From a phage, in the sequence record LC918680.1: a DNA stretch of 46,345 nucleotides; one strand, given 5' to 3'. A model generated the notes under the pieces. It saw only the letters and a program-made list of their open reading frames with translations, had not been told where the DNA came from and ran no database searches. Made by a program: the position numbers and the translations under genes. Below, piece after piece: positions 1 through 45,214 of the stretch (the first letter of the stretch is position 1; every line of letters starts with the position of its first letter).

Positions 1-1620
1 ATGCTTCACAACTGGATTCTTAATTGTCGTGATGGTTGGATTGGTGAAATTATGGCTAATTTAGTTTGGGAGGAAATGACGCCAGCAGAAAAGATGGCGG
101 TTAAGGCGATATCCACTCATAGCTTCGAGGGATTCTTGCGGGTGTGGTTCCAGCTAACTCAGGGAGAGCGGTACATTCCAAACTGGCATCATAAATACCT
201 TTGCAGAATCATTGACGAGATTATAGCAGGTGAGCGCAAGGACACTATCATTAACATAGCACCAGGTAGCGGAAAAACAGAGATAGCCTCAATTCACTTC
301 CCAGCCTACTCAATGGTTAAGTTGAGAAAGGTAAGGAACCTGAATATATCGTATGCTGACTCACTGGTTAAGCGTAACTCCAAGCGTGTGCGCGACTTAA
401 TTAAGTCTGTTGAGTTCCAGGAGTTGTTCCCATGTAAGTTTGGTACGTGTAAGGATGATGAGCTACAGGTCCTGGATGACTATGGCAAGGTCAGGTTTGA
501 GTCAATCTCTAAAGCCACTGGCGGCCAAATTACAGGCGCAAGGGGTGGATATATAACCGATTCGTATAGTGGTGCGGTACTGTTAGATGATTTTGACAAA
601 CCAGCCGACATGCTTTCTGCTGTTTTTCGCGCTAACAATCACGTGATGCTAAAGAATACAATACGCTCTCGTAGGGCGAGCTCCGTAAAAGGAAAGGCGA
701 CGCCGATTATCTCTATCCAACAGCGCCTTCATGTGAACGATAGTACGTGGTTCATGATGAATGGCGGTATGGGTATTAGCTTCGACTTGATTAAGATACC
801 GGCGCTCGTAACTGAGGATTACGTCGACACGCTTCCTGACTGGGTTAAGCAGCAATTCATTGATGACGTTCTATCAAGCGAATATATTGAGCGTGATGGT
901 GTTAGGTACTATAGCTATTTCCCTGGCAAGGAATCTGTTCACGACCTAATTGCAATGTGGGATTCTGATAGCTATACATTCCTTAGCCAGTATCAGCAAG
1001 AACCAGTAGCACTTGGCGGCAACCTGATTAACGTAGACTGGCTTCAACGCATTAGCGACACTCTGCGACCGCCAGCTAAGTACGATTACAGGTTTATGGT
1101 CCTTGATACTGCGATGACAACCAAAAGTTACAGCGACTTTAGCGTCATGCAGCTATGGGGTTATAAGGATGGGAAGATTTATCTGCTTGACCAGCGACGC
1201 GGTAAATTTGAAGCTCCTGAGCTCGAGGCTGAGTTATTGGATTTCGAGAAGATGGCTAGGGCATCCAATCAGATAGATGGCATCCTTCGTAAAATCATCA
1301 TCGAGAAGAAAGCCTCTGGTATTGGCCTGATTCAATCAGCCGGAAGGGTTATGCGAACGCCTATCGAGCCGTACGTGCCAGATAACGATAAGCTGACTCG
1401 CGTAATGAGTGCATTACCGCAGATTAAAGCTGGTAACGTAATCCTTCCGGAGTCTGCTACTTGGCTTAATGGCTTGCTAACGGAGATTGCGGCATTCACG
1501 GCAGATGATTCACATGTTCACGATGACCAGATAGACTGTTTGACAATGGCTGTCAACCTGGTACTGAACATTGCAGAAGACCCTAAATCGAGGATGATGC
1601 GCCTCGCTGGCATCAAATAG
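1..1620 (+). CDS. terL: terminase large subunit (start at window edge; may be 5'-truncated)
   Basis: 539-aa ORF; Walker A-like IAPGSGKT, Walker B-like VLLDDFD, C-terminal acidic nuclease-type residues (VLDTA, DDQIDC); heads the structural module. Confidence 0.85.
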   Translation: MLHNWILNCRDGWIGEIMANLVWEEMTPAEKMAVKAISTHSFEGFLRVWFQLTQGERYIPNWHHKYLCRIIDEIIAGERKDTIINIAPGSGKTEIASIHFPAYSMVKLRKVRNLNISYADSLVKRNSKRVRDLIKSVEFQELFPCKFGTCKDDELQVLDDYGKVRFESISKATGGQITGARGGYITDSYSGAVLLDDFDKPADMLSAVFRANNHVMLKNTIRSRRASSVKGKATPIISIQQRLHVNDSTWFMMNGGMGISFDLIKIPALVTEDYVDTLPDWVKQQFIDDVLSSEYIERDGVRYYSYFPGKESVHDLIAMWDSDSYTFLSQYQQEPVALGGNLINVDWLQRISDTLRPPAKYDYRFMVLDTAMTTKSYSDFSVMQLWGYKDGKIYLLDQRRGKFEAPELEAELLDFEKMARASNQIDGILRKIIIEKKASGIGLIQSAGRVMRTPIEPYVPDNDKLTRVMSALPQIKAGNVILPESATWLNGLLTEIAAFTADDSHVHDDQIDCLTMAVNLVLNIAEDPKSRMMRLAGIK

Positions 1621-1632
1621 CACGTTTTGCTA
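1618..1632 (+). promoter_or_regulatory. boundary motif TAGCAC-N3-TTGCTA, copy 1
   Basis: TAGCACGTTTTGCTA; first 3 nt are the terL stop codon. Confidence 0.6.
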
Positions 1633-1689
1633 AAGACGCTCCGCCAAGGATGGCTTATAGTTACTTCACGCAAACGAGAGGAGTAAAAA

Positions 1690-2043
1690 ATGAAAGCAGT
1701 ATTTAAAGGGTATAAAAAAGATGGTTATTTTAAGTTTACCGTTGGTAAGATTTATGACTTATCAAGAACGCCTGGAAGTAATAATGAATACGTCAAAGTT
1801 AAGGATGATAAAGGCTATTTTGGCGTAATTAATCTTAGTGTTTATGATTTCGAAGTTATAGAGCCTACCGATTTTGTCGTTAAAGGTGATAATTTTAAAG
1901 TTGAAAAGGCTGGGATTAAATACTTCATCAACAAAAACATAGTAACTAAAGAGGCATTTTATGAAGTCAGAAGGGAGGTTCGCCAGTTAACACTTAATGG
2001 AGTGAAAACATCATCAATCAAGTTCGAAGTAAAATTCGAGTAA
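1690..2043 (+). CDS. hypothetical protein (AT-rich moron between terL and portal)
   Basis: ATG with SD GAGAGGAG upstream; boundary motif upstream and hairpin+T-run downstream; Lys/Tyr-rich, no recognisable motifs. Confidence 0.55.
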   Translation: MKAVFKGYKKDGYFKFTVGKIYDLSRTPGSNNEYVKVKDDKGYFGVINLSVYDFEVIEPTDFVVKGDNFKVEKAGIKYFINKNIVTKEAFYEVRREVRQLTLNGVKTSSIKFEVKFE

Positions 2044-2065
2044 CCATAAAAGCTATGCTAAACTA

Positions 2066-2089
2066 AGCCCCTAAATTGGGCTTTTTATT
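2066..2089 (+). terminator. intrinsic terminator candidate
   Basis: AGCCC-CTAAATT-GGGCT + TTTTTATT. Confidence 0.5.
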
Positions 2090-2101: not shown

Positions 2102-3373
2102 ATGGTAAAAGCAGATTCATACGCCACGCAATTTCTTGGTGGCCCCAGTGATGGTAGCGAGATTTACGGGCACTTTGGCAACACGTATCTTACACCTCCT
2201 TTCGCTGATTCACTGTACGCATCAAACTCAATTGTACGCCGCATCGTCGACACCATACCGGAGACAGCAATCGCCGCAGGTTTCCATATCGATGGTATTG
2301 ATGACGAAGGTGAATTCTGGTCCAGGTGGGATTACCTGAAGGTTAACGAGTCAATCTCTGACGCATGGTCATGGGCGAGGTTATTTGGCGGCTCTGCAAT
2401 TGTGGCTATCGTTAAGGACAATCGTGCGCTAACCAGCCCGGTACGTGAAGGCGCGGAACTTGAATCACTTCGCGTTTATGAGCGTAGCCAGGTAAGAGTT
2501 CAGACTAAGGAGGAAAACCCTCGCAATGTGCGATTCGGTAAGCCATTAACGTACCGCATCACGCCAGAAGGTAGCGCCATGTTTTATGATGTGCACTACT
2601 CGCGAGTTCACATTATGGATGGCGAGAAGATTCCTAGTTCATTGCGTCGCGGTAATGAAGGGTGGGGTGCTAGCGTTCTGGTTCCTGACCTGCTTGAATC
2701 AATCAAGGATTATCAGACGTGTGAGAAACTGGCAACTCAGTTATTGCGCCGCAAGCAGCAGGCGGTGTGGAAGGCTAAAGGCCTTGCTGAACTGTGTGAC
2801 GACGCGGAAGGTTTTGGTGCGGCCAGGTTGAGGCTTGCCCAGGTTGATGATAACTCTGGCGTTGGTCGCGCGATTGGTATCGACGCTGAAGCTGAAGAGT
2901 ACAGCGTTCTTAACTCGGATATTGGTGGGATTGATGGATTCCTCGATAAGAAGTTCGACAGAATTGTTGCTCTGAGCGGTATCCATGAAATCATTCTCAA
3001 AGGTCGTAACGTTGGCGGGTTGTCATCAAGCCAGAATACAGCGCTAGAGACTTTCCACAAGCTAATCGACCGCAAGCGCAATGAGGAGTTACTTCCAGTG
3101 CTTGGTTTCTTAATCCCATTCATCACAACCGAGCAGGAATGGTCAGTTGAGTTTAAACCTCTAGCTCAGGAATCGAAAAAGGACCGAGCTGAAATACTGA
3201 AGAATAACGTTGATTCAATATCCGCCCTCATCACTAACGGCGTAATGGATGCTGATGAAGCACGAGATACCTTGCGCGCATTAGCCCCAGAGGTTAAGAT
3301 TGGTGATGGTTCGATTGCAAATGAGCAGCCCGCTCAGGAAGAATCACCAAAAGAGGAGCCTGCAATTGAATAA
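2102..3373 (+). CDS. portal protein (by position and size)
   Basis: 423-aa ORF immediately after terL with acidic C-terminus; assignment is positional, no motif check possible. Confidence 0.6.
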   Translation: MVKADSYATQFLGGPSDGSEIYGHFGNTYLTPPFADSLYASNSIVRRIVDTIPETAIAAGFHIDGIDDEGEFWSRWDYLKVNESISDAWSWARLFGGSAIVAIVKDNRALTSPVREGAELESLRVYERSQVRVQTKEENPRNVRFGKPLTYRITPEGSAMFYDVHYSRVHIMDGEKIPSSLRRGNEGWGASVLVPDLLESIKDYQTCEKLATQLLRRKQQAVWKAKGLAELCDDAEGFGAARLRLAQVDDNSGVGRAIGIDAEAEEYSVLNSDIGGIDGFLDKKFDRIVALSGIHEIILKGRNVGGLSSSQNTALETFHKLIDRKRNEELLPVLGFLIPFITTEQEWSVEFKPLAQESKKDRAEILKNNVDSISALITNGVMDADEARDTLRALAPEVKIGDGSIANEQPAQEESPKEEPAIE

Positions 3374-3393: not shown

Positions 3394-4500
3394 ATGTATA
3401 AGAATCGCTTTGATACAGCAACATTCAAAGCCACCATTGACGAGAATGGTTTTCTCGTCGATACGCCAGTAGTAGCAAGGGTTGGTGTGCAGGTTTATTT
3501 CACAGAGGACGGTTCGACTGTTCGAGAGTTCAGGCCAGCAGAAGAAGTCTTCAAAGAGGAGTCGCTAGCCAGTTACCAGGGTAAGCCAATGACTCTTAAC
3601 CACGTCTTTGTAAACTCCGATAACGCTAAAGACGTAGTGGTCGGCTCGGTAACTGGTAAAGCTGAGGCTCTAGGAAGTACGGTAATTGCGCCAATTGTCG
3701 TATACTCTCAAGAAGCTATTGACGAGGCTCGCTCAGGTAACGCTAAGGAATTATCTGTAGGTTACTCGGCAGTTCTTGATGAAACTCCAGGTTGGGGCGA
3801 CCCGGCAACTGGTAAGTACATTCTTAGGACTGACAACACGCAGGGTTTGGATATACCCACTGACTGGCAAGAGTTCGACGCAATCCAGAGAGACATTAAG
3901 GTAAACCATTTAGCTATGGTCTTCAGGGGTAGGGCTGGAATTGCTAAGCTAAATATGGACGGGCAGCAAGAAAACCCGTATACTGACAACGTTGATTTAA
4001 ATACTAAGGAAAACAAAATGACAGTTAAGATTAAGATTGACTCTGTTGAAGTTGAGGTGTCCAAAGAAGTTGCAGACCACATCTCCAAGATTAACTCCGC
4101 TGTTGAAGCACAGAAAGCTAAGGTTGACTCCATTGAAGCTGAGCGTGATGCACTGAAAGCCAAGGTGGACGCAATGCCTGCTGAAATCGAGAAAGCAGTC
4201 AAAGCCGCTAAAGCTGATGCTGAAGCGCTTGCCGCTCTGGTTGCCGTAGCCGCAGAGGTTGGCGTTAAGACTGATGGTCTGGAAGCTAAAGATATAAAAG
4301 CAGCATACGTTAAAGAAGTTTCCGGCCTTGATGTTTCCGAGAAGTCCGACGCATACATCGACGCAGCGTTCGACATTGCCAAAGATTCTGATAAAATGGC
4401 TGAAGTTCGCAAGGCAACCGCAGCTTCCGACAAATCTGATGCTGCCGACGCACCTAAGAAATTAGACCCGCGCGCTCGTTTAGCAAAAATTAAAAAGTAA
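3394..4500 (+). CDS. putative head maturation/scaffolding protein (globular N-domain + Ala/Lys/Glu-rich coiled-coil C-domain)
   Basis: ATG 3394 with AGGAGG 6 nt upstream (track start 3379 is GTG); C-terminal half strongly coiled-coil-like (AEAL, KAKVD repeats). Confidence 0.45.
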   Translation: MYKNRFDTATFKATIDENGFLVDTPVVARVGVQVYFTEDGSTVREFRPAEEVFKEESLASYQGKPMTLNHVFVNSDNAKDVVVGSVTGKAEALGSTVIAPIVVYSQEAIDEARSGNAKELSVGYSAVLDETPGWGDPATGKYILRTDNTQGLDIPTDWQEFDAIQRDIKVNHLAMVFRGRAGIAKLNMDGQQENPYTDNVDLNTKENKMTVKIKIDSVEVEVSKEVADHISKINSAVEAQKAKVDSIEAERDALKAKVDAMPAEIEKAVKAAKADAEALAALVAVAAEVGVKTDGLEAKDIKAAYVKEVSGLDVSEKSDAYIDAAFDIAKDSDKMAEVRKATAASDKSDAADAPKKLDPRARLAKIKK

Positions 4501-4511
4501 GGAGATAGATA

Positions 4512-5009
4512 ATGGCAATTCGTTCTGTAGCACTGGCTGGTATGGTATCTGATACCTCCCTGTATAATATCGATGGCGCGTGTGTAGTTGGCGGTACCAC
4601 TGAAATTCCTGTTGGTGTAGCTGTTAAAGTATCTACGCTAGAACCGTTAGCTGATGGTCACAAATCCGTTATTGCAACTGGTATTGCTGCAAACTCGGCT
4701 TGTGGCGTAGTTGTTCGTTCTAATTACGAGACTCCAGATGGCACCGCTAAAGTGAAAGAGGCTGTTAACGTAATGACCGCTGGCCGAATCTGGATGCGCA
4801 CTAACCTTAAAGTAGCGCCAAGCTTCGGTACTGCCGTTTTTGTGAATTCAACTGGCGTAGTTGTTGCAGGCGCAGAAGCTGGCGGCGTGGCAACTGGCTG
4901 GACATTCGCTGGCGGATTCATTCCCGCAGCAACCGCAGATGGCGCAATGCCAACTCAAGGTGATAGCGTTGATGGTCCTCTGGTAGAAGTTCAGGTTAAG
5001 CAGAAGTAA
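4512..5009 (+). CDS. putative head decoration/minor capsid protein
   Basis: 165-aa Gly/Ala/Val-rich ORF between scaffold-like gene and capsid gene, followed by strong terminator. Confidence 0.4.
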   Translation: MAIRSVALAGMVSDTSLYNIDGACVVGGTTEIPVGVAVKVSTLEPLADGHKSVIATGIAANSACGVVVRSNYETPDGTAKVKEAVNVMTAGRIWMRTNLKVAPSFGTAVFVNSTGVVVAGAEAGGVATGWTFAGGFIPAATADGAMPTQGDSVDGPLVEVQVKQK

Positions 5010-6112: not shown

Positions 6113-6136
6113 GCCCTCTTAGGAGGGCTTTTTTTA
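6113..6136 (+). terminator. intrinsic terminator after capsid gene
   Basis: GCCCTC-TTAG-GAGGGC + TTTTTTT. Confidence 0.8.
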
Positions 6137-8778: not shown

Positions 8779-8781
8779 TGA

Positions 8782-8796
8782 TAGCACTTTTTGTTA
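8782..8796 (+). promoter_or_regulatory. boundary motif copy 2
   Basis: TAGCACTTTTTGTTA after major-tail terminator. Confidence 0.5.
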
Positions 8797-8857
8797 AAGA
8801 CCAAATCGCGGATTGCTGTATAGTTCATTCATCGAAACGAAATGAGATATTAGTGAA

Positions 8858-9106
8858 ATGAACAACGTTAAAAACATCATCAAACTTGCTGCTGCTCTTG
8901 GTGCTTTCTACCTGGCAATTCAGATTGTTAACCCAACTGGTGGCGAAACCGCAAACTCTGATGCAATAAAGTATGAACATGAATTTAATAGTGCATATTC
9001 TCATTGTGAAAAAGTAGCTGGCGATAAGACAAATCAGATTCTGCATTATGGTCGCGAGGTGTGCACCGAAGTTGCTCACAACATTGTAAAAAACGAATCA
9101 AAGTAA
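8858..9106 (+). CDS. small secreted/membrane protein (moron in tail module)
   Basis: N-terminal hydrophobic segment IIKLAAALGAFYLAIQIV; AT-rich; preceded by terminator, boundary motif and conserved CATCGAAACGAAA leader. Confidence 0.55.
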   Translation: MNNVKNIIKLAAALGAFYLAIQIVNPTGGETANSDAIKYEHEFNSAYSHCEKVAGDKTNQILHYGREVCTEVAHNIVKNESK

Positions 9107-9141
9107 TATAATCATTCAACACAAACAAAGGAGATAACGAG

Positions 9142-13171: not shown

Positions 13172-13175
13172 ACTA

Positions 13176-13199
13176 AGGCCCATAGAGGGCCTTTTTTAT
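13176..13199 (+). terminator. intrinsic terminator candidate
   Basis: AGGCCC-ATAGA-GGGCCT + TTTTTT. Confidence 0.65.
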
Positions 13200-13209
13200 T
13201 GGAGAGAAT

Positions 13210-20900: not shown

Positions 20901-21399
20901 GGTTTTGCGGATTAGTTTTAGCTATTCGTGCTGTTGGTTACGCGTAACCGATGTAACTCTATGTATACCATATGCATCAGCGGGAAATCGTATACGCCTA
21001 ATTACGCTTTGATACGCCATAGTTACATTAAAATATATATATATATCAACCTTTTACTCTTATTATTATTATTATATATATTACTGTGTATATCATGTAA
21101 CTACTGTCATGGAGCGTTCCGGTTATAATTTTTATATCATGTGATTTTATACAGTATTTCGCTGCACCTATACCTATGCACCATCCGCTAAAATTGGTAT
21201 ACACGATATACGCACCATTTACATTGAGCTATAGCTGGGCTCAGGCAGTGAAAAACGTAACCAATAGAAATGTCTACACGTAGTTACGGATTTATACGCG
21301 TATACTTGATTAATTAATCGGCGATACCAATTGGACTGTGTGTCTTGCGTGCGGCATCATTAACGCATCGAAAGCAAACAGCCACAGAGAGATAGAGAA
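20901..21399. repeat. control region A: gene-free AT-rich divergent intergenic region, paralogous to region B
   Basis: Shares with region B the blocks TATATATATCAACCTTTTACT, (ATT)n-TATATATA microsatellite and AGCTATAGCTGGGCT...CGTAACCAAT; contains palindromes GGTTACGCGTAACC (20936-20949) and TATACGCGTATA (21293-21304). Confidence 0.7.
20919..20933 (-). promoter_or_regulatory. boundary motif copy 4 (degenerate)
   Basis: - strand CAGCACGAATAGCTA upstream of MTase leader. Confidence 0.4.
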
Positions 21400-21787: not shown

Positions 21788-22759
21788 ATGACATTTAAAG
21801 TTTATACGAACGACGAGCTAACAAATGAATCCTATCACGAAGAGCAAGACCATATCTCTGGCTCTTCACTGGCTGAGATTCTTGCTACCTCACCAGCTAA
21901 ATGGAAGTTTAAGCAGCGCAATAACTCTAGCGCAGCACTTAAGTTTGGCACACTAAGTCACTGCATGATGCTAGAGCGCGAGGTGTTTGACTCAACATAC
22001 ATGCGAGCTACTGACTTTGACGAAGTGGAAGGATTGATTACTAGCCAAACGGCTTTATCCGCAGCGCTTAAAAAAGTTGGAGTTTCAGGCACGTCAGGGA
22101 AGGGTTATAACGAGCTTGTAGAGATGATGTATAAGTGTGGTGAGGATTGGCCTGTTAAATGGTTAATTGAGCAGCAGGAGAGCGCTCATGCGCTAATTAG
22201 TGGCAAAGAGCTCGTTACTGCGAAAGATTACGATAAAGTAATTCAAATGCGAGAGGTTCTAACTAATATTCCGGCATATGATTCGGTCATTAATTCACCA
22301 TCAGCGCAGAAAGAACTATCAATATTTGGTGAGATTCTCGGTTGTGGTGTTAAGGTTCGTCTTGACCATGTGGATGTTGTTGATGGTATTGTCTACATTA
22401 CTGACTACAAAACCACAGCAGATGCAAGTCCTAGAGGATTTGGGAAGTCAGCTTATGACCATGGATACCTGTGCAAGATGGCACTTCAGCGAGATCTGTT
22501 TGTGAAAGCCTTTAATGAGAAACGCAAGGTTGTAGTTCGCCTTTTGGCACAGGAGAAAGCAGAGCCTTACTTACCTATGTGCTACACGCTTACGGATGAG
22601 CAGCTTCGCATTGGGCGCTTACAATATTTAGAGGCTCTGGCTGTTTACAAGCAGTGCAAGGAACTTGATGTGTGGCCTGGGTATAGCAATGGGATTACAG
22701 AGCAAGATTTGATGATTCCTGAGTGGGTAAGTAAGCAGTATCAAGAACTTCTAAAATAG
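21788..22759 (+). CDS. PD-(D/E)xK family exonuclease (recombination exonuclease)
   Basis: VRLDHVDVVDGIVYITDYKT gives D...D-x-K nuclease motif; adjacent to Erf-like and SSB genes. Confidence 0.7.
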   Translation: MTFKVYTNDELTNESYHEEQDHISGSSLAEILATSPAKWKFKQRNNSSAALKFGTLSHCMMLEREVFDSTYMRATDFDEVEGLITSQTALSAALKKVGVSGTSGKGYNELVEMMYKCGEDWPVKWLIEQQESAHALISGKELVTAKDYDKVIQMREVLTNIPAYDSVINSPSAQKELSIFGEILGCGVKVRLDHVDVVDGIVYITDYKTTADASPRGFGKSAYDHGYLCKMALQRDLFVKAFNEKRKVVVRLLAQEKAEPYLPMCYTLTDEQLRIGRLQYLEALAVYKQCKELDVWPGYSNGITEQDLMIPEWVSKQYQELLK

Positions 22760-28052: not shown

Positions 28053-28526
28053 TTAATCTTTAGCTTTTCGTGCTGCTTCGTTGGCAATCTTATTCTTGCG
28101 CCATGGTCGACATGGTGGCTTTGTTGCTAGTTCAGCTTCGGTAACAACCCGCAGCATATGGCGTTTCTTGCATCTAAGCGTTAATGGCTTACCGTTTCCG
28201 TCGAATTGCAGGTCTGGTCGGCAGAACGTAGCTCTAAAGCCTTCCTTATTTCGCTTGTATGCATTGTGAGCCCTCTGGGCACCTCGAGCCGAAATCATCC
28301 CGCGATCAAACCATTGCTCTACAGTCTGGTGAGATACATTTAACTGCTTGGCGATATTGGCCTTCGTGCCGTAGAAATCAAGAACCATCTCCAGACGAGC
28401 TCGTAGCCCAGCCTTTACTTCATCTTTCAATACGTAGTAGCCTGACGGTCGTTTGCGCTGTTTCTTGTCTTGCGTGCGGATGGTTCCGTTATTGCCGTTG
28501 ATAGTTCGCTTGTCAATTTCACACAT
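28053..28526 (-). CDS. basic HTH DNA-binding protein
   Basis: HTH-like IAKQLNVSHQTVEQWF; highly basic termini. Confidence 0.45.
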   Translation of the reverse strand: MCEIDKRTINGNNGTIRTQDKKQRKRPSGYYVLKDEVKAGLRARLEMVLDFYGTKANIAKQLNVSHQTVEQWFDRGMISARGAQRAHNAYKRNKEGFRATFCRPDLQFDGNGKPLTLRCKKRHMLRVVTEAELATKPPCRPWRKNKIANEAARKAKD

Positions 28527-40450: not shown

Positions 40451-41053
40451 ATTAGTTGGATTTATTTATTGTTGCAGATATTGCAATGATTAATCTTACT
40501 ATTGCACATATAACAATATTGCATCGAATGCAATGATGTTTTTGATTGTTGCGGGATTTGCAATGATTGATGTGAGGGTGAATGAATGGTGAATGAACTA
40601 CCATACAAGTTGATTTTGATTCTTGCTGAGCCAATTTGGATATACACGTTATCGAAGTTATGGTGTGTATATGAGGTGCGCTTCCGAAGAATCATACACG
40701 CCTACCACGCTAGATTACGCAATGGTTACATAATAATATCTATATATATCAACCTTTTACTATATTATTATTATTATTATATATATGTATGTATATGGTG
40801 TAGATTGGTCGTATGGATGGGTCGATAGTTTTTCTATGAAAACTACTAATTTTATCTATATAGATACATATGCATACCCCCGGCGAATCCGCGTAAAATA
40901 TTACACAGGGTAATTACACCAGCTATAGCTGGGCTGAGAGGTCAAAAAGCGTAACCAATGCAGATATAAACACAACATAACACTTGATAACGCGTATATT
41001 CATGATACCATGGTTTCATCTTAACGAAGAGCAACCAATCAGGAGTAACGAAT
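40451..41053. repeat. control region B: gene-free AT-rich divergent intergenic region, paralogous to region A; iteron-like TGCAATGAT repeats
   Basis: Same conserved blocks as region A at about 40741-40790 and 40920-40975; three TGCAATGAT copies plus further TTGCA half-sites at about 40470-40570; coordinates +/-2. Confidence 0.7.
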
Positions 41054-45138: not shown

Positions 45139-45214
45139 GTTCTGCTGGCGTAACAGGATAACGCAAAGACCTCCTAAGTCTTAGTTACTGGTTCGAGTCC
45201 AGTGCGGAACACCA
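45139..45214 (+). tRNA. tRNA-Arg (anticodon CCU, reads AGG)
   Basis: Manual cloverleaf: 7-bp acceptor stem (one G-U), 4-bp D-stem with GG in loop, 5-bp anticodon stem with loop CTCCTAA, T-arm ACTGG/TTCGAGT/CCAGT, discriminator A, encoded CCA. Confidence 0.8.

What the first reader, a model, noticed from the sequence alone, without database searches (positions are those of the whole stretch)
1690..2043. AT-rich moron inserted between terL and the portal gene
The 117-aa ORF is visibly more AT-rich than its flanks. It is bracketed by a boundary motif with conserved leader upstream and a hairpin with T-run downstream, so it looks like an independently transcribed unit inside the packaging/head operon. 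Function is unknown (Lys/Tyr-rich, beta-rich); morons often encode host-interaction, exclusion or anti-defence functions.
Basis: partly seen in the sequence, partly recalled or inferred. Interest (0 to 1): 0.5.

Follow-up and report, generated by a model that had tools for sequence, protein, structure and literature searches.

The report
Portable moron cassette in T1-like phage
A small, AT-rich, dispensable gene with its own promoter and terminator sits between the DNA-packaging and portal genes of a T1-like coliphage, and the same promoter-gene-terminator unit occurs in other slots of related phages, so it is a mobile accessory ("moron") gene of unknown function, not a core virion gene.

Summary
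ORF 1690-2043 (117 aa) has the lowest G+C in the window (0.32, against 0.46 for terL and 0.49 for the portal gene). The 19-nt repeat lies upstream at 1617-1635, and a hairpin with a T-run lies downstream at 2065-2089.

The moron reading is supported by comparison. Only 9 of 59 T1-like terL-portal junctions carry the gene. Carriers and non-carriers are interleaved among close relatives. One lineage has a frameshifted copy, and HNH endonucleases fill the slot elsewhere. dN/dS is 0.34-0.62, against 0.03-0.09 for the neighbouring genes.

Homologues with the same promoter-leader-ORF-terminator layout sit between tail genes M|L and L|K in other T1-like phages. Another homologue lies in an early gene cluster of a Vequintavirinae phage.

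The predicted protein has an SH3-like barrel and a beta-beta-alpha-beta domain, with no informative homologue. The label "virion structural protein" (PHROG 14592) has no experimental support that I could find. Function is inferred: a non-structural host-interaction factor.

Caveats: both bracketing signals are generic elements of T1-like genomes, and the hairpin must be leaky for the portal gene to be expressed.

Side finding: the boundary motif matches the E. coli MarA/SoxS/Rob marbox consensus, placed as in class II promoters.

The parts
1617..1635 (+). 19-nt boundary repeat ATAGCACGTTTTGCTAAAG. It overlaps the terL stop codon. It matches the MarA/SoxS/Rob marbox consensus with one mismatch (last base G instead of Y). 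Its 15-mer core, 1620-1634, matches gcannwwntgnnaaa exactly.
1656..1661 (+). -10-like hexamer TATAGT, 21 nt after the 15-mer box. This places the box at about -48..-34, the class II position. The start of transcription is predicted near 1668.
   Evidence: 19 modules aligned; the A at -11 is invariant and the T at -7 nearly so; position criterion from PMC12052159
1662..1689 (+). Conserved leader (TTACTTCACGCAAACGAGAGGAG...) with the Shine-Dalgarno sequence AGGAG at 1679-1683
1690..2043 (+). Cargo ORF of 117 aa (13.6 kDa, pI 9.4). It has an N-terminal SH3-like beta-barrel (residues 1-58), a low-confidence variable linker (61-73) and a C-terminal beta-beta-alpha-beta domain (75-117). It belongs to PHROG 14592.
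2008..2064 (+). Conserved 3' block: the last ~12 codons (SSIKFEVKFE) plus TAACCATAAAAGCTATGCTAAACTA. DNA homology to distant Braunvirinae resumes here. This is the right-hand boundary of the exchangeable ORF body.
2065..2089 (+). Terminator-like hairpin (6-bp stem, 7-nt loop) plus TTTATT. The portal RBS GGAG (2090-2093) follows directly. The element is weak (-7.8 kcal/mol) and conserved in relatives with and without the ORF.

Best explanation
The feature is a self-contained accessory gene cassette (a moron) of virulent T1-like phages.

Shown by comparison. The unit [marbox-type repeat, -10 hexamer, conserved leader, ORF, hairpin with T-run] is dispensable. It is patchily distributed and occurs in at least three different intergenic slots of T1-like structural operons (terL|portal, tail M|L, tail L|K). 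A bare ORF copy lies in an early gene cluster of a Vequintavirinae phage. The ORF body is replaced by divergent alleles between conserved cassette ends, and it changes amino acids 4-20 times faster, relative to silent change, than terL and the portal gene.

Inferred. Host sigma-70 RNA polymerase starts near 1668 from a promoter with a good -10, a poor -35 and an activator site centred near -41. The strong Shine-Dalgarno sequence gives abundant product. The weak hairpin stops part of the transcripts and lets the rest run into the portal gene.

Inferred with less confidence. The 13.6-kDa product is a soluble, non-virion protein. Its SH3-like barrel binds a host or phage protein, and it acts as a non-essential host-interaction or counter-defence factor under arms-race selection.
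For: Distribution.
- The ORF is present at 9 of 59 T1-like terL-portal junctions.
- Seven close relatives have a 48-49 nt gap instead, and four have an HNH_3 endonuclease in the slot.
- Only 30 phage records hold a homologue, against 839 with a homologous portal gene.
- Carriers and non-carriers are each other's nearest neighbours by portal and terL identity: window/TR2, L003/L007 and Sd1/L017.
- The phiEB49 copy is frameshifted in an A-run.

Evolution.
- dN/dS is 0.34 and 0.62 for the ORF, against 0.03-0.09 for terL and the portal gene in the same phage pairs. The window and phage ES differ by 5 non-synonymous and 0 synonymous changes.
- IMM-001 has a portal protein 96% identical to the window's, but its ORF body is only ~50% identical in DNA. 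The identity is 80-88% in the terL end and marbox (falling to 64% over the -10 and leader) and 98% in the 3' end at 2016-2065.

Portability.
- Homologues with the same marbox, GGATGGCGTATAGT, leader, ATG ... hairpin, TTTTTTATTGGAG layout lie between tail M|L (L063) and tail L|K (L067 = AugustePiccard, which also has a terL|portal copy; L068).
- The window's own L|K junction has neither signal.
- P0040 lies next to a DNA ligase among small early genes of Vequintavirinae phage UPEC06.

Composition and origin.
- It is the lowest-GC ORF in the window, with a GC3 z-score of -3.0.
- There is no match in 5,426 complete E. coli genomes.

Protein.
- The AF2 model has mean pLDDT 82.5 and shows an SH3-like barrel plus a beta-beta-alpha-beta domain.
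- The phage already has a Phage_cement decoration protein at 4512..5009.
Against: - No transcript, protein or phenotype data exist for any member, so promoter use, termination efficiency and function are all inferred.
- RefSeq and PHROG call members 'virion structural protein', and one GenBank record says 'putative minor outer capsid protein'.
- Most copies lie inside structural operons.
- Both bracketing signals also occur at the same junction without the ORF: the marbox in ~25 loci and the hairpin in all class C loci. At this slot the signals are therefore not demonstrably part of the insert, and the direction of events (insertion or deletion) is unresolved.
- The SH3-like fold does not identify a ligand.
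- A dN/dS of 0.3-0.6 could reflect relaxed constraint rather than an arms race.
Confidence: 0.62

Rival explanations
1. It is a dispensable virion-associated protein, such as a head, neck or tail decoration or adhesin. It would be made in bulk from its own promoter and added to the particle. Paralogues placed beside head or tail genes would decorate the corresponding part.
For: - The PHROG 14592, RefSeq and GenBank labels point this way.
- Four of the five contexts seen are inside structural operons.
- The strong RBS and following terminator resemble the layout of abundant structural genes, such as the major capsid and major tail genes, which are followed by terminators at 6113 and 8747.
- Small beta-rich accessory domains that evolve fast are typical of decoration proteins (general knowledge).
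Against: - I found no proteomic support. Gel-band mass spectrometry of JK06-like virions (AHP24, AHS24, AHP42, AKS96) and of Rogue1 lists the portal and other proteins but not the gene before the portal gene (PMC4070988, PMC3496638). Only 3-7 bands were analysed, so this is weak evidence.
- One homologue sits among early genes next to a DNA ligase in a Vequintavirinae phage.
- Presence or absence does not follow portal or capsid type.
- The phage already has a cement protein.
Confidence: 0.2
2. It is an ordinary, vertically inherited structural or packaging gene of the head operon, co-expressed with terL and the portal gene. It would resemble lambda gpW, which lies between the terminase and portal genes.
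For: Its position between terL and the portal gene is the same as gpW in lambda (from memory). It shares its silent-site divergence with the portal side.
Against: - It is absent from 50 of 59 junctions and from T1 itself.
- It is frameshifted in phiEB49.
- Family members occur in tail and early-gene slots.
- Its dN/dS is 4-20 times that of its neighbours.
Confidence: 0.03
3. It is a decayed or non-catalytic relative of the free-standing homing endonucleases that use this slot. It would be kept as a selfish or site-protecting element.
For: HNH_3 endonuclease genes occupy the same slot in L006, L018, L039 and L057. The C-terminal domain has a beta-beta-alpha core. The junction is a recombination breakpoint, since terL and portal genes have different nearest neighbours.
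Against: - There is no Pfam, NCBIfam or PADLOC match.
- The family has no conserved His, Cys or metal ligands. The invariant residues are G, K, D, Y, F, N and E.
- No nuclease appears among the structural matches.
- dN/dS is below 1 and both termini are conserved, which argues for a working protein.
Confidence: 0.05
4. It is not a gene: a chance ORF in an AT-rich spacer.
For: AT-rich sequence has few stop-free stretches in other frames. No Pfam family matches.
Against: - There are 30 family representatives at 50% identity, aligned along their full length, with conserved N- and C-termini.
- dN/dS is below 1 in divergent pairs.
- There is a canonical RBS.
- The fold prediction is confident.
Confidence: 0.01

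Closest known systems
Morons of lambdoid phages (Juhala/Hendrix definition; e.g. HK97 gp15, lambda lom and bor; from memory)
   Same: A single ORF is flanked by a sigma-70-type promoter and an intrinsic terminator. It lies between genes that are adjacent in relatives, has deviant base composition, and is dispensable and patchy.
   Different: - The host phage is virulent, so there is no prophage expression.
- The promoter is the phage's own general promoter type, not a foreign one.
- The terminator is a generic junction element and is leaky.
- The same cargo family recurs in several slots.
- The ORF body is exchanged between conserved cassette ends.
T1 'transcriptons' and the 21-nt direct repeat aaATAGCACnnnTTGnTAAAA of TLS, T1, Rtp and Rogue1 (PMC11447400, citing the T1 genome paper)
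   Same: The upstream motif of this ORF is a copy of that repeat. The unit bounded by repeat/promoter and terminator is what those authors call a transcripton.
   Different: The authors left the repeat unexplained, suggesting a stoperator, enhancer site or UP element. They did not describe this ORF family or its portability.
PHROG 14592 / RefSeq 'virion structural protein' (CEB_EC3a gp67, Jk06 JK_35P, phiEB49 gp57, Sd1)
   Same: Sequence membership is clear (E = 3e-29, full length).
   Different: The functional label has no experimental basis that I could find. The distribution and the alternative genomic contexts argue against a core structural role.
Bas11 Gp54 (PDB 9axb), the small SH3-like trigger of CapRel-SJ46 (PMC11578894)
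   Different: There is no detectable sequence similarity: it is not found by the family profile at E <= 10. It has 66 aa and a single domain, sits at a different locus, and has a six-stranded barrel.
DUF7244 standalone SH3 protein of the Drexlerviridae lysis module (PMC13164509)
   Same: It is another patchy, small SH3-like accessory protein of T1-like phages, sometimes next to HNH genes. Foldseek gives TM 0.69 to the N-terminal domain.
   Different: It is unrelated in sequence. The window's 57-aa ORF in the corresponding position before the holin gene (35673..35846; not scanned against DUF7244 here) gives BLASTP E = 1.3 against the N-terminal domain. It is always beside the lysis genes and has a single domain.
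Class II MarA/SoxS/Rob-dependent promoters of E. coli (PMC5684230, PMC12052159)
   Same: The box sequence equals the consensus. It is in forward orientation, centred near -41 and overlaps a poor -35, with a good -10.
   Different: It lies in a phage genome, in about 16 copies per genome. Binding and dependence have not been tested. A phage Cro/CI-like HTH protein is an alternative binder.

Membership tests
Moron (promoter-ORF-terminator insert) | It lies between two genes that are adjacent in related phages | tested here: met
   terL and the portal gene are 48-49 nt apart in TR2, DTL and five other close relatives, and 58-95 nt apart in all but one of the more distant ones (L054, 140 nt), including T1
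Moron (promoter-ORF-terminator insert) | It has its own promoter upstream | tested here: inconclusive
   A promoter-like module is present (box 1617-1635, TATAGT 1656-1661) and travels with the ORF to the M|L and L|K slots. The same box also sits on the terL stop codon in ~25 ORF-less phages. No transcript start has been mapped.
Moron (promoter-ORF-terminator insert) | It has its own factor-independent terminator downstream | tested here: inconclusive
   A hairpin with T-run is present. It accompanies the ORF at the L|K slot, where the window has none. It is also present at ORF-less terL|portal junctions and is weak here (-7.8 kcal/mol).
Moron (promoter-ORF-terminator insert) | Its nucleotide composition differs from the surrounding genome | tested here: met
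   G+C is 0.32 against a genome value of 0.436, the lowest of 81 ORFs. The GC3 z-score is -3.0 after correcting for amino-acid content.
Moron (promoter-ORF-terminator insert) | It is expressed independently of the surrounding operon | not testable with these tools
   This needs RNA-seq or TSS mapping of infected cells. No T1-like transcriptome was found in the library.
PHROG 14592 'virion structural protein' | Sequence match to the family profile | tested here: met
   E = 3e-29, residues 1-117 on profile positions 2-116 of 116
PHROG 14592 'virion structural protein' | The protein is present in purified virions | not testable with these tools
   No proteomic record was found. Band-based mass spectrometry of related virions does not list it.
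SH3-like small beta-barrel | Five-stranded barrel topology in the N-terminal ~58 residues | tested here: met
HNH / beta-beta-alpha-metal nuclease | Conserved catalytic His and metal-binding residues on a beta-beta-alpha core | tested here: not met
   A beta-beta-alpha core is predicted at 76-102, but the family has no conserved His or Cys and no HNH Pfam match.
Class II MarA/SoxS/Rob-dependent promoter | Marbox sequence (gcannwwntgnnaaa / AYNGCACNNWNNRYYAAAY) | tested here: met
   1620-1634 GCACGTTTTGCTAAA matches the 15-mer definition exactly and is 14/15 identical to the marRAB marbox ccacgttttgctaaa. The 19-mer has one mismatch.
Class II MarA/SoxS/Rob-dependent promoter | Forward orientation, overlapping the -35 (site between -36 and -55) | tested here: met
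   The box reads in the direction of the ORF. With the hexamer at -12..-7 the 15-mer spans about -48..-34, centred at -41 (criterion from PMC12052159). The TSS is predicted, not mapped.
Class II MarA/SoxS/Rob-dependent promoter | Binding by, and activation through, MarA, SoxS or Rob | not testable with these tools
   This needs EMSA or footprinting, and infection of marA soxS rob mutants.

The most novel reading that the evidence does not exclude
The 'boundary motif' that drives this moron, and about 15 other transcription units in the window, is a consensus binding site for the host regulators MarA, SoxS and Rob in class II position. T1 itself has 20 exact copies. If so, T1-like phages would wire most of their gene expression, including portable accessory cassettes like this one, through the host's stress, antibiotic and bile-salt response regulators. 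The cassette's conserved ends would also serve as recombination anchors for swapping cargo alleles. This would explain a repeat that the T1 and TLS genome papers left unexplained.
Probability: 0.4. Interest if true: 0.75.

Novelty: new member of a known kind. Interest (0 to 1): 0.45.

Why it matters
For annotation, the inherited label 'virion structural protein' for this family is probably wrong and should read 'accessory protein of unknown function'.

For phage biology, the family is a clean example of a promoter-gene-terminator cassette that moves between slots in virulent phages. It exchanges cargo alleles between conserved ends. This is the behaviour expected of genes involved in host range, exclusion or counter-defence, so members are reasonable candidates for anti-defence or defence-trigger screens. 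Another small SH3-like Drexlerviridae protein was already found in such a screen.

The wider value lies in the promoter. If the marbox identity is functional, infection by T1-like phages would depend on, or respond to, Rob, MarA or SoxS. That is directly testable with existing E. coli mutants. It is relevant to phage therapy given together with antibiotics or in bile-rich environments.

Tried and rejected
- **Family databases.** Pfam, NCBIfam and PADLOC scans of the ORF gave nothing.
- **Profile against PDB sequences.** Only noise was found, with E >= 0.4.
- **Exhaustive HMMER search of 1.84 billion representatives.** It found 30 hits. The four long hits (P0041-P0044) are lectin or Ig-repeat proteins and were rejected as spurious.
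- **Source of the 'virion structural protein' label.** The Rogue1, AHP24-group, ACG-M12 and IMM-001 papers give no support. The first literature query was badly chosen.
- **Host origin.** There is no match in complete E. coli genomes.
- **Paralogue in the window.** None was found.
- **Relation to the ORF before the lysis genes.** BLASTP between the N-terminal domain and the window's 57-aa ORF before the holin gene gave no similarity.
- **Column-wise covariation for the inverted repeat around the -10.** This was abandoned because the register differs between copies. It was replaced by an own-versus-cross complementarity permutation test.
- **Direction of events at terL|portal.** Whether class C arose by deletion or class A by insertion could not be resolved.
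- **T1-like transcriptome.** None was found.
- **Rfam.** Only the tRNA matched.

Full report
**What the window is**

The window is a T1-like siphovirus genome of the family Drexlerviridae, subfamily Braunvirinae. Its closest records are Escherichia phages ES (94.5% DNA identity over the first 4.5 kb) and AN_ECEAS (96%). ORF 1..1620 is the large terminase subunit (Terminase_6C, PHROG 38). ORF 2102..3373 is the portal protein (Phage_portal_3, E = 1e-66).

**Check of the observation**

The 117-codon ORF at 1690..2043 exists and has an AGGAG 6 nt upstream.
- Its G+C is 0.32, against 0.46 for terL and 0.49 for the portal gene. That is the lowest of 81 mechanically called ORFs (mean 0.423, sd 0.041).
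- Amino-acid content explains about half of the deficit.
- The rest is AT-biased synonymous codon choice. GC3 is 0.299, against 0.431 +/- 0.044 expected (z = -3.0).
- Three other genes, among them a tail-fibre gene and the polynucleotide kinase, are equally or more AT3-biased.

The upstream motif ATAGCACGTTTTGCTAAAG (1617-1635) overlaps the terL stop codon and belongs to a repeat family far above chance. A hairpin with a T-run follows the ORF at 2065-2089.

**Is it a gene?**

Yes.
- There are 18 close homologues.
- An exhaustive profile search of 1.84 billion representative proteins found 26 credible family members of about 100-140 aa (four long hits rejected).
- Both termini are strongly conserved (MKAVFKGY... 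and ...SSIKFEVKFE). The middle is variable and rich in insertions and deletions.
- dN/dS is below 1 in divergent pairs.

The AlphaFold2 model (mean pLDDT 82.5, pTM 0.46) has three parts:
- an N-terminal five-stranded SH3-like barrel (residues 1-58);
- a low-confidence linker (61-73);
- a C-terminal beta-beta-alpha-beta domain.

**Distribution at the terL|portal junction**

I fetched 57 loci around portal homologues and added five annotated ones. With the window, 59 junctions could be analysed.

| Class | Loci | Content of the junction |
|---|---|---|
| A | 9 (8 distinct phages, including Rtp, CEB_EC3a, SU57, Sd1, phiEB49) | Motif + ORF + hairpin |
| C | 7 close relatives (TR2, DTL and others) | 48-49 nt gap with the hairpin only |
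| HNH | 4 | An HNH_3 homing endonuclease in the slot |
| B | about 25, from more distant subfamilies | Motif on the terL stop codon and a hairpin, but no ORF |
| None | 14 | Neither motif nor ORF |

- T1 itself has only a terminator in this slot.
- In the phage collection, 839 records have a homologous portal gene but only 30 have a detectable ORF homologue.
- Carriers and non-carriers are interleaved. The nearest relative of window/ES is ORF-less TR2. L003 is closest to ORF-less L007 after its sister, and Sd1 is closest to ORF-less L017.
- The phiEB49 copy is split by a frameshift in an A-run.

The gene is dispensable and repeatedly gained, lost or exchanged.

**Evolutionary rate and allele exchange**

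- In the pair L003/L004 the ORF has dN/dS 0.34, against 0.08 for terL and 0.06 for the portal gene.
- In L008/L009 it is 0.62, against 0.09 and 0.03.
- The window and ES differ by 5 non-synonymous and 0 synonymous changes.
- Silent divergence of the ORF follows the portal side, not terL. This places a recombination breakpoint at the terL end.
- IMM-001 has a portal protein 96% identical to the window's, yet its ORF body is only ~50% identical in DNA.
- In the same comparison, the terL end and marbox are 80-88% identical, falling to 64% over the -10 and leader. The 3' block at 2016-2065 is 98% identical.

So the ORF body is an exchangeable segment between conserved cassette ends.

**Portability (the decisive evidence)**

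Context look-ups of distant family members show the same cassette elsewhere.
- P0034 lies between tail genes M and L.
- P0039 and P0037 lie between tail genes L and K.
- P0039 is a second paralogue in phage AugustePiccard, which also has a terL|portal copy.

Each of these copies has the same layout:
- a marbox overlapping the upstream stop codon;
- a GGATGGCGTATAGT-type -10 region;
- the ...AAACGAGAGGAG leader;
- a hairpin followed by TTTTTTATTGGAG and the next gene's ATG.

The window's own L|K junction has neither promoter nor hairpin. At that slot the cassette therefore brings both signals.

A fifth context is an early gene cluster beside a DNA ligase in the 143-kb Vequintavirinae phage UPEC06, without these signals. 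This mobility, and a non-structural context, argue against a core structural or packaging-specific role.

**The bracketing signals are generic**

Nineteen modules were aligned, 15 from the window and 4 from other cassettes.
- The -10 hexamer lies at a fixed distance from the repeat.
- The A at -11 is invariant and the T at -7 nearly invariant.
- The -35 is poor (AAGACN at best).
- The initial transcribed sequence CATCGAAACGA is conserved.

Modules precede early, replication, lysis and tail genes alike. The motif is therefore the general promoter element of the phage and not specific to this ORF.

The hairpin, T-run and GGAG element is likewise a generic junction. It is found at ORF-less terL|portal junctions and after the window's M gene. 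The portal gene has no other promoter, so the hairpin must be leaky. In the window it is weakened to -7.8 kcal/mol, against -12.7 in ES.

The unit is thus a transcription unit in form but not insulated. Its promoter probably also feeds the portal operon.

**Identity of the boundary motif (side finding)**

The repeat is the 21-nt direct repeat aaATAGCACnnnTTGnTAAAA that the TLS re-annotation paper describes in TLS, T1, Rtp and Rogue1. That paper leaves it unexplained, suggesting a stoperator, enhancer or UP element (PMC11447400).

The repeat coincides with the E. coli MarA/SoxS/Rob marbox.
- The ChIP-seq consensus gcactaattgctaaa (PMC5684230) is identical to the window copies at 22756 and 39844.
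- The ORF's copy is 14/15 identical to the marRAB operon's own marbox.
- The degenerate consensus AYNGCACNNWNNRYYAAAY (from memory) gives 16 matches at <=1 mismatch, against 1.1 expected.
- The 15-mer definition gcannwwntgnnaaa (PMC12052159) gives 12 exact matches in the window and 20 in T1, against ~0.5 expected.
- Orientation and position fit the class II definition in that paper: forward, and centred near -41 if the hexamer is at -12..-7.

I found no paper linking the two.

There is a rival binder. The phage has a Cro/CI-like HTH protein at 28053..28526, homologous to T1 ST23. It could recognise the TAGCA-N5-TGCTA core. However, the motif's asymmetric flanks and strict orientation fit a marbox better. 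Binding and dependence are untested.

**Function**

Function is not shown. The evidence is as follows:
- dispensability and patchiness;
- paralogy and slot-hopping;
- allele replacement and elevated dN/dS;
- an early-gene context in another phage family;
- an existing cement protein in this phage;
- absence from the published virion band proteomes of related phages.

From this, I judge a soluble, non-virion host-interaction or counter-defence factor, using its SH3-like barrel to bind a protein ligand, as the most likely reading. A dispensable virion decoration protein is the main rival (about 0.2). Other small SH3-like accessory proteins of Drexlerviridae are analogues in kind, not homologues. 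They are Bas11 Gp54, a CapRel trigger (PMC11578894), and the DUF7244 protein of the lysis module (PMC13164509).

**Verdict**

- The moron interpretation is supported, and strengthened by the discovery of the same cassette in other slots.
- Two corrections apply: the bracketing signals are generic, and the unit is not insulated.
- It is a new member of a known kind.
- The gene itself is of moderate interest. The marbox identity of its promoter motif is the most interesting lead.

Noticed in passing
window, + strand 1617, 8781, 22756, 28539, 32175, 35598, 41678, 41870, 42725, 44140; - strand 20185, 20934, 39844, 40452 (weaker: 26538, 29945, 34511, 28076-, 39064-): The intergenic 19-nt repeat matches the E. 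coli MarA/SoxS/Rob marbox consensus. There are 16 matches at <=1 mismatch against 1.1 expected, and two copies are identical to the ChIP-seq consensus gcactaattgctaaa. The box lies in forward orientation 21 nt upstream of a conserved -10, which is the class II position. T1 has 20 exact 15-mer matches. The TLS paper describes the repeat as unexplained, and I found no paper making the marbox link.
   Followed up: partly
window modules at 22756, 32175, 35598, 41870, 42725, 28076(-), 39064(-): In about half of the promoter modules, the spacer just upstream of the -10 hexamer is complementary to the 6-9 nt just downstream of it. The sequence and register differ between copies but complementarity is kept. 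Own-arm pairing exceeds cross-module pairing (permutation p = 1e-4). It is absent from the module of this finding. I have no explanation.
   Followed up: partly
window 28053..28526 (-): This 157-aa protein is a Cro/CI-like helix-turn-helix protein (P22_Cro, 23 bits, below the Pfam cut-off). It is homologous to T1 ST23 'transcriptional regulator'. It is a candidate phage-encoded binder of the palindromic core TAGCA-N5-TGCTA of the repeat.
   Followed up: partly
window 21004-21099 / 40707-40802 and 21227-21279 / 40921-40973: Two copies, 19.7 kb apart, of an extremely AT-rich region of ~270 bp. It contains (TA)n and (ATT)n runs (73-74% identity between copies). Both copies lie in intergenic parts of the non-structural half.
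   Followed up: no
L006 3432-3956, L018 2185-2550, L039 3413-3922, L057 3412-3918: In other T1-like phages the terL|portal slot holds an HNH_3 homing endonuclease gene instead. It lies downstream of the marbox in two cases and upstream of it in two. terL and the portal gene also have different nearest relatives, so the junction is a recombination and insertion hotspot.
   Followed up: partly
L067 (Escherichia phage AugustePiccard, MZ501051) 4001-4318 and record 2848-3165: One phage carries two paralogues of the family in two slots, terL|portal and tail L|K.
   Followed up: partly
window 13172-13209 and 2044-2101: The element AAACTA, GC-rich hairpin, TTTTTTATTGGAG, ATG recurs as a generic gene junction in the structural module (after tail gene M, and after the ORF of the finding). 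The hairpin after the ORF carries a G->T change relative to phage ES that weakens it from -12.7 to -7.8 kcal/mol.
   Followed up: partly
L010 (phiEB49) 3612-3943; also ACG-M12, SCS31, ECH1 records: The family member is interrupted by a frameshift in an A-run. tblastn covers only residues 1-102 in four related records. This could be real inactivation, or a shared sequencing or annotation artefact.
   Followed up: no
window 45139-45214 (+): A tRNA-Arg(CCT) gene, the only Rfam or ARAGORN hit in the window. Relatives carry a tRNA-Arg in the same region.
   Followed up: no
window 8781-9140: A second marbox module lies inside the structural region. It follows the terminator of the major tail gene directly and precedes a small ORF upstream of the tail chaperone genes. 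It may be another moron-like unit.
   Followed up: no
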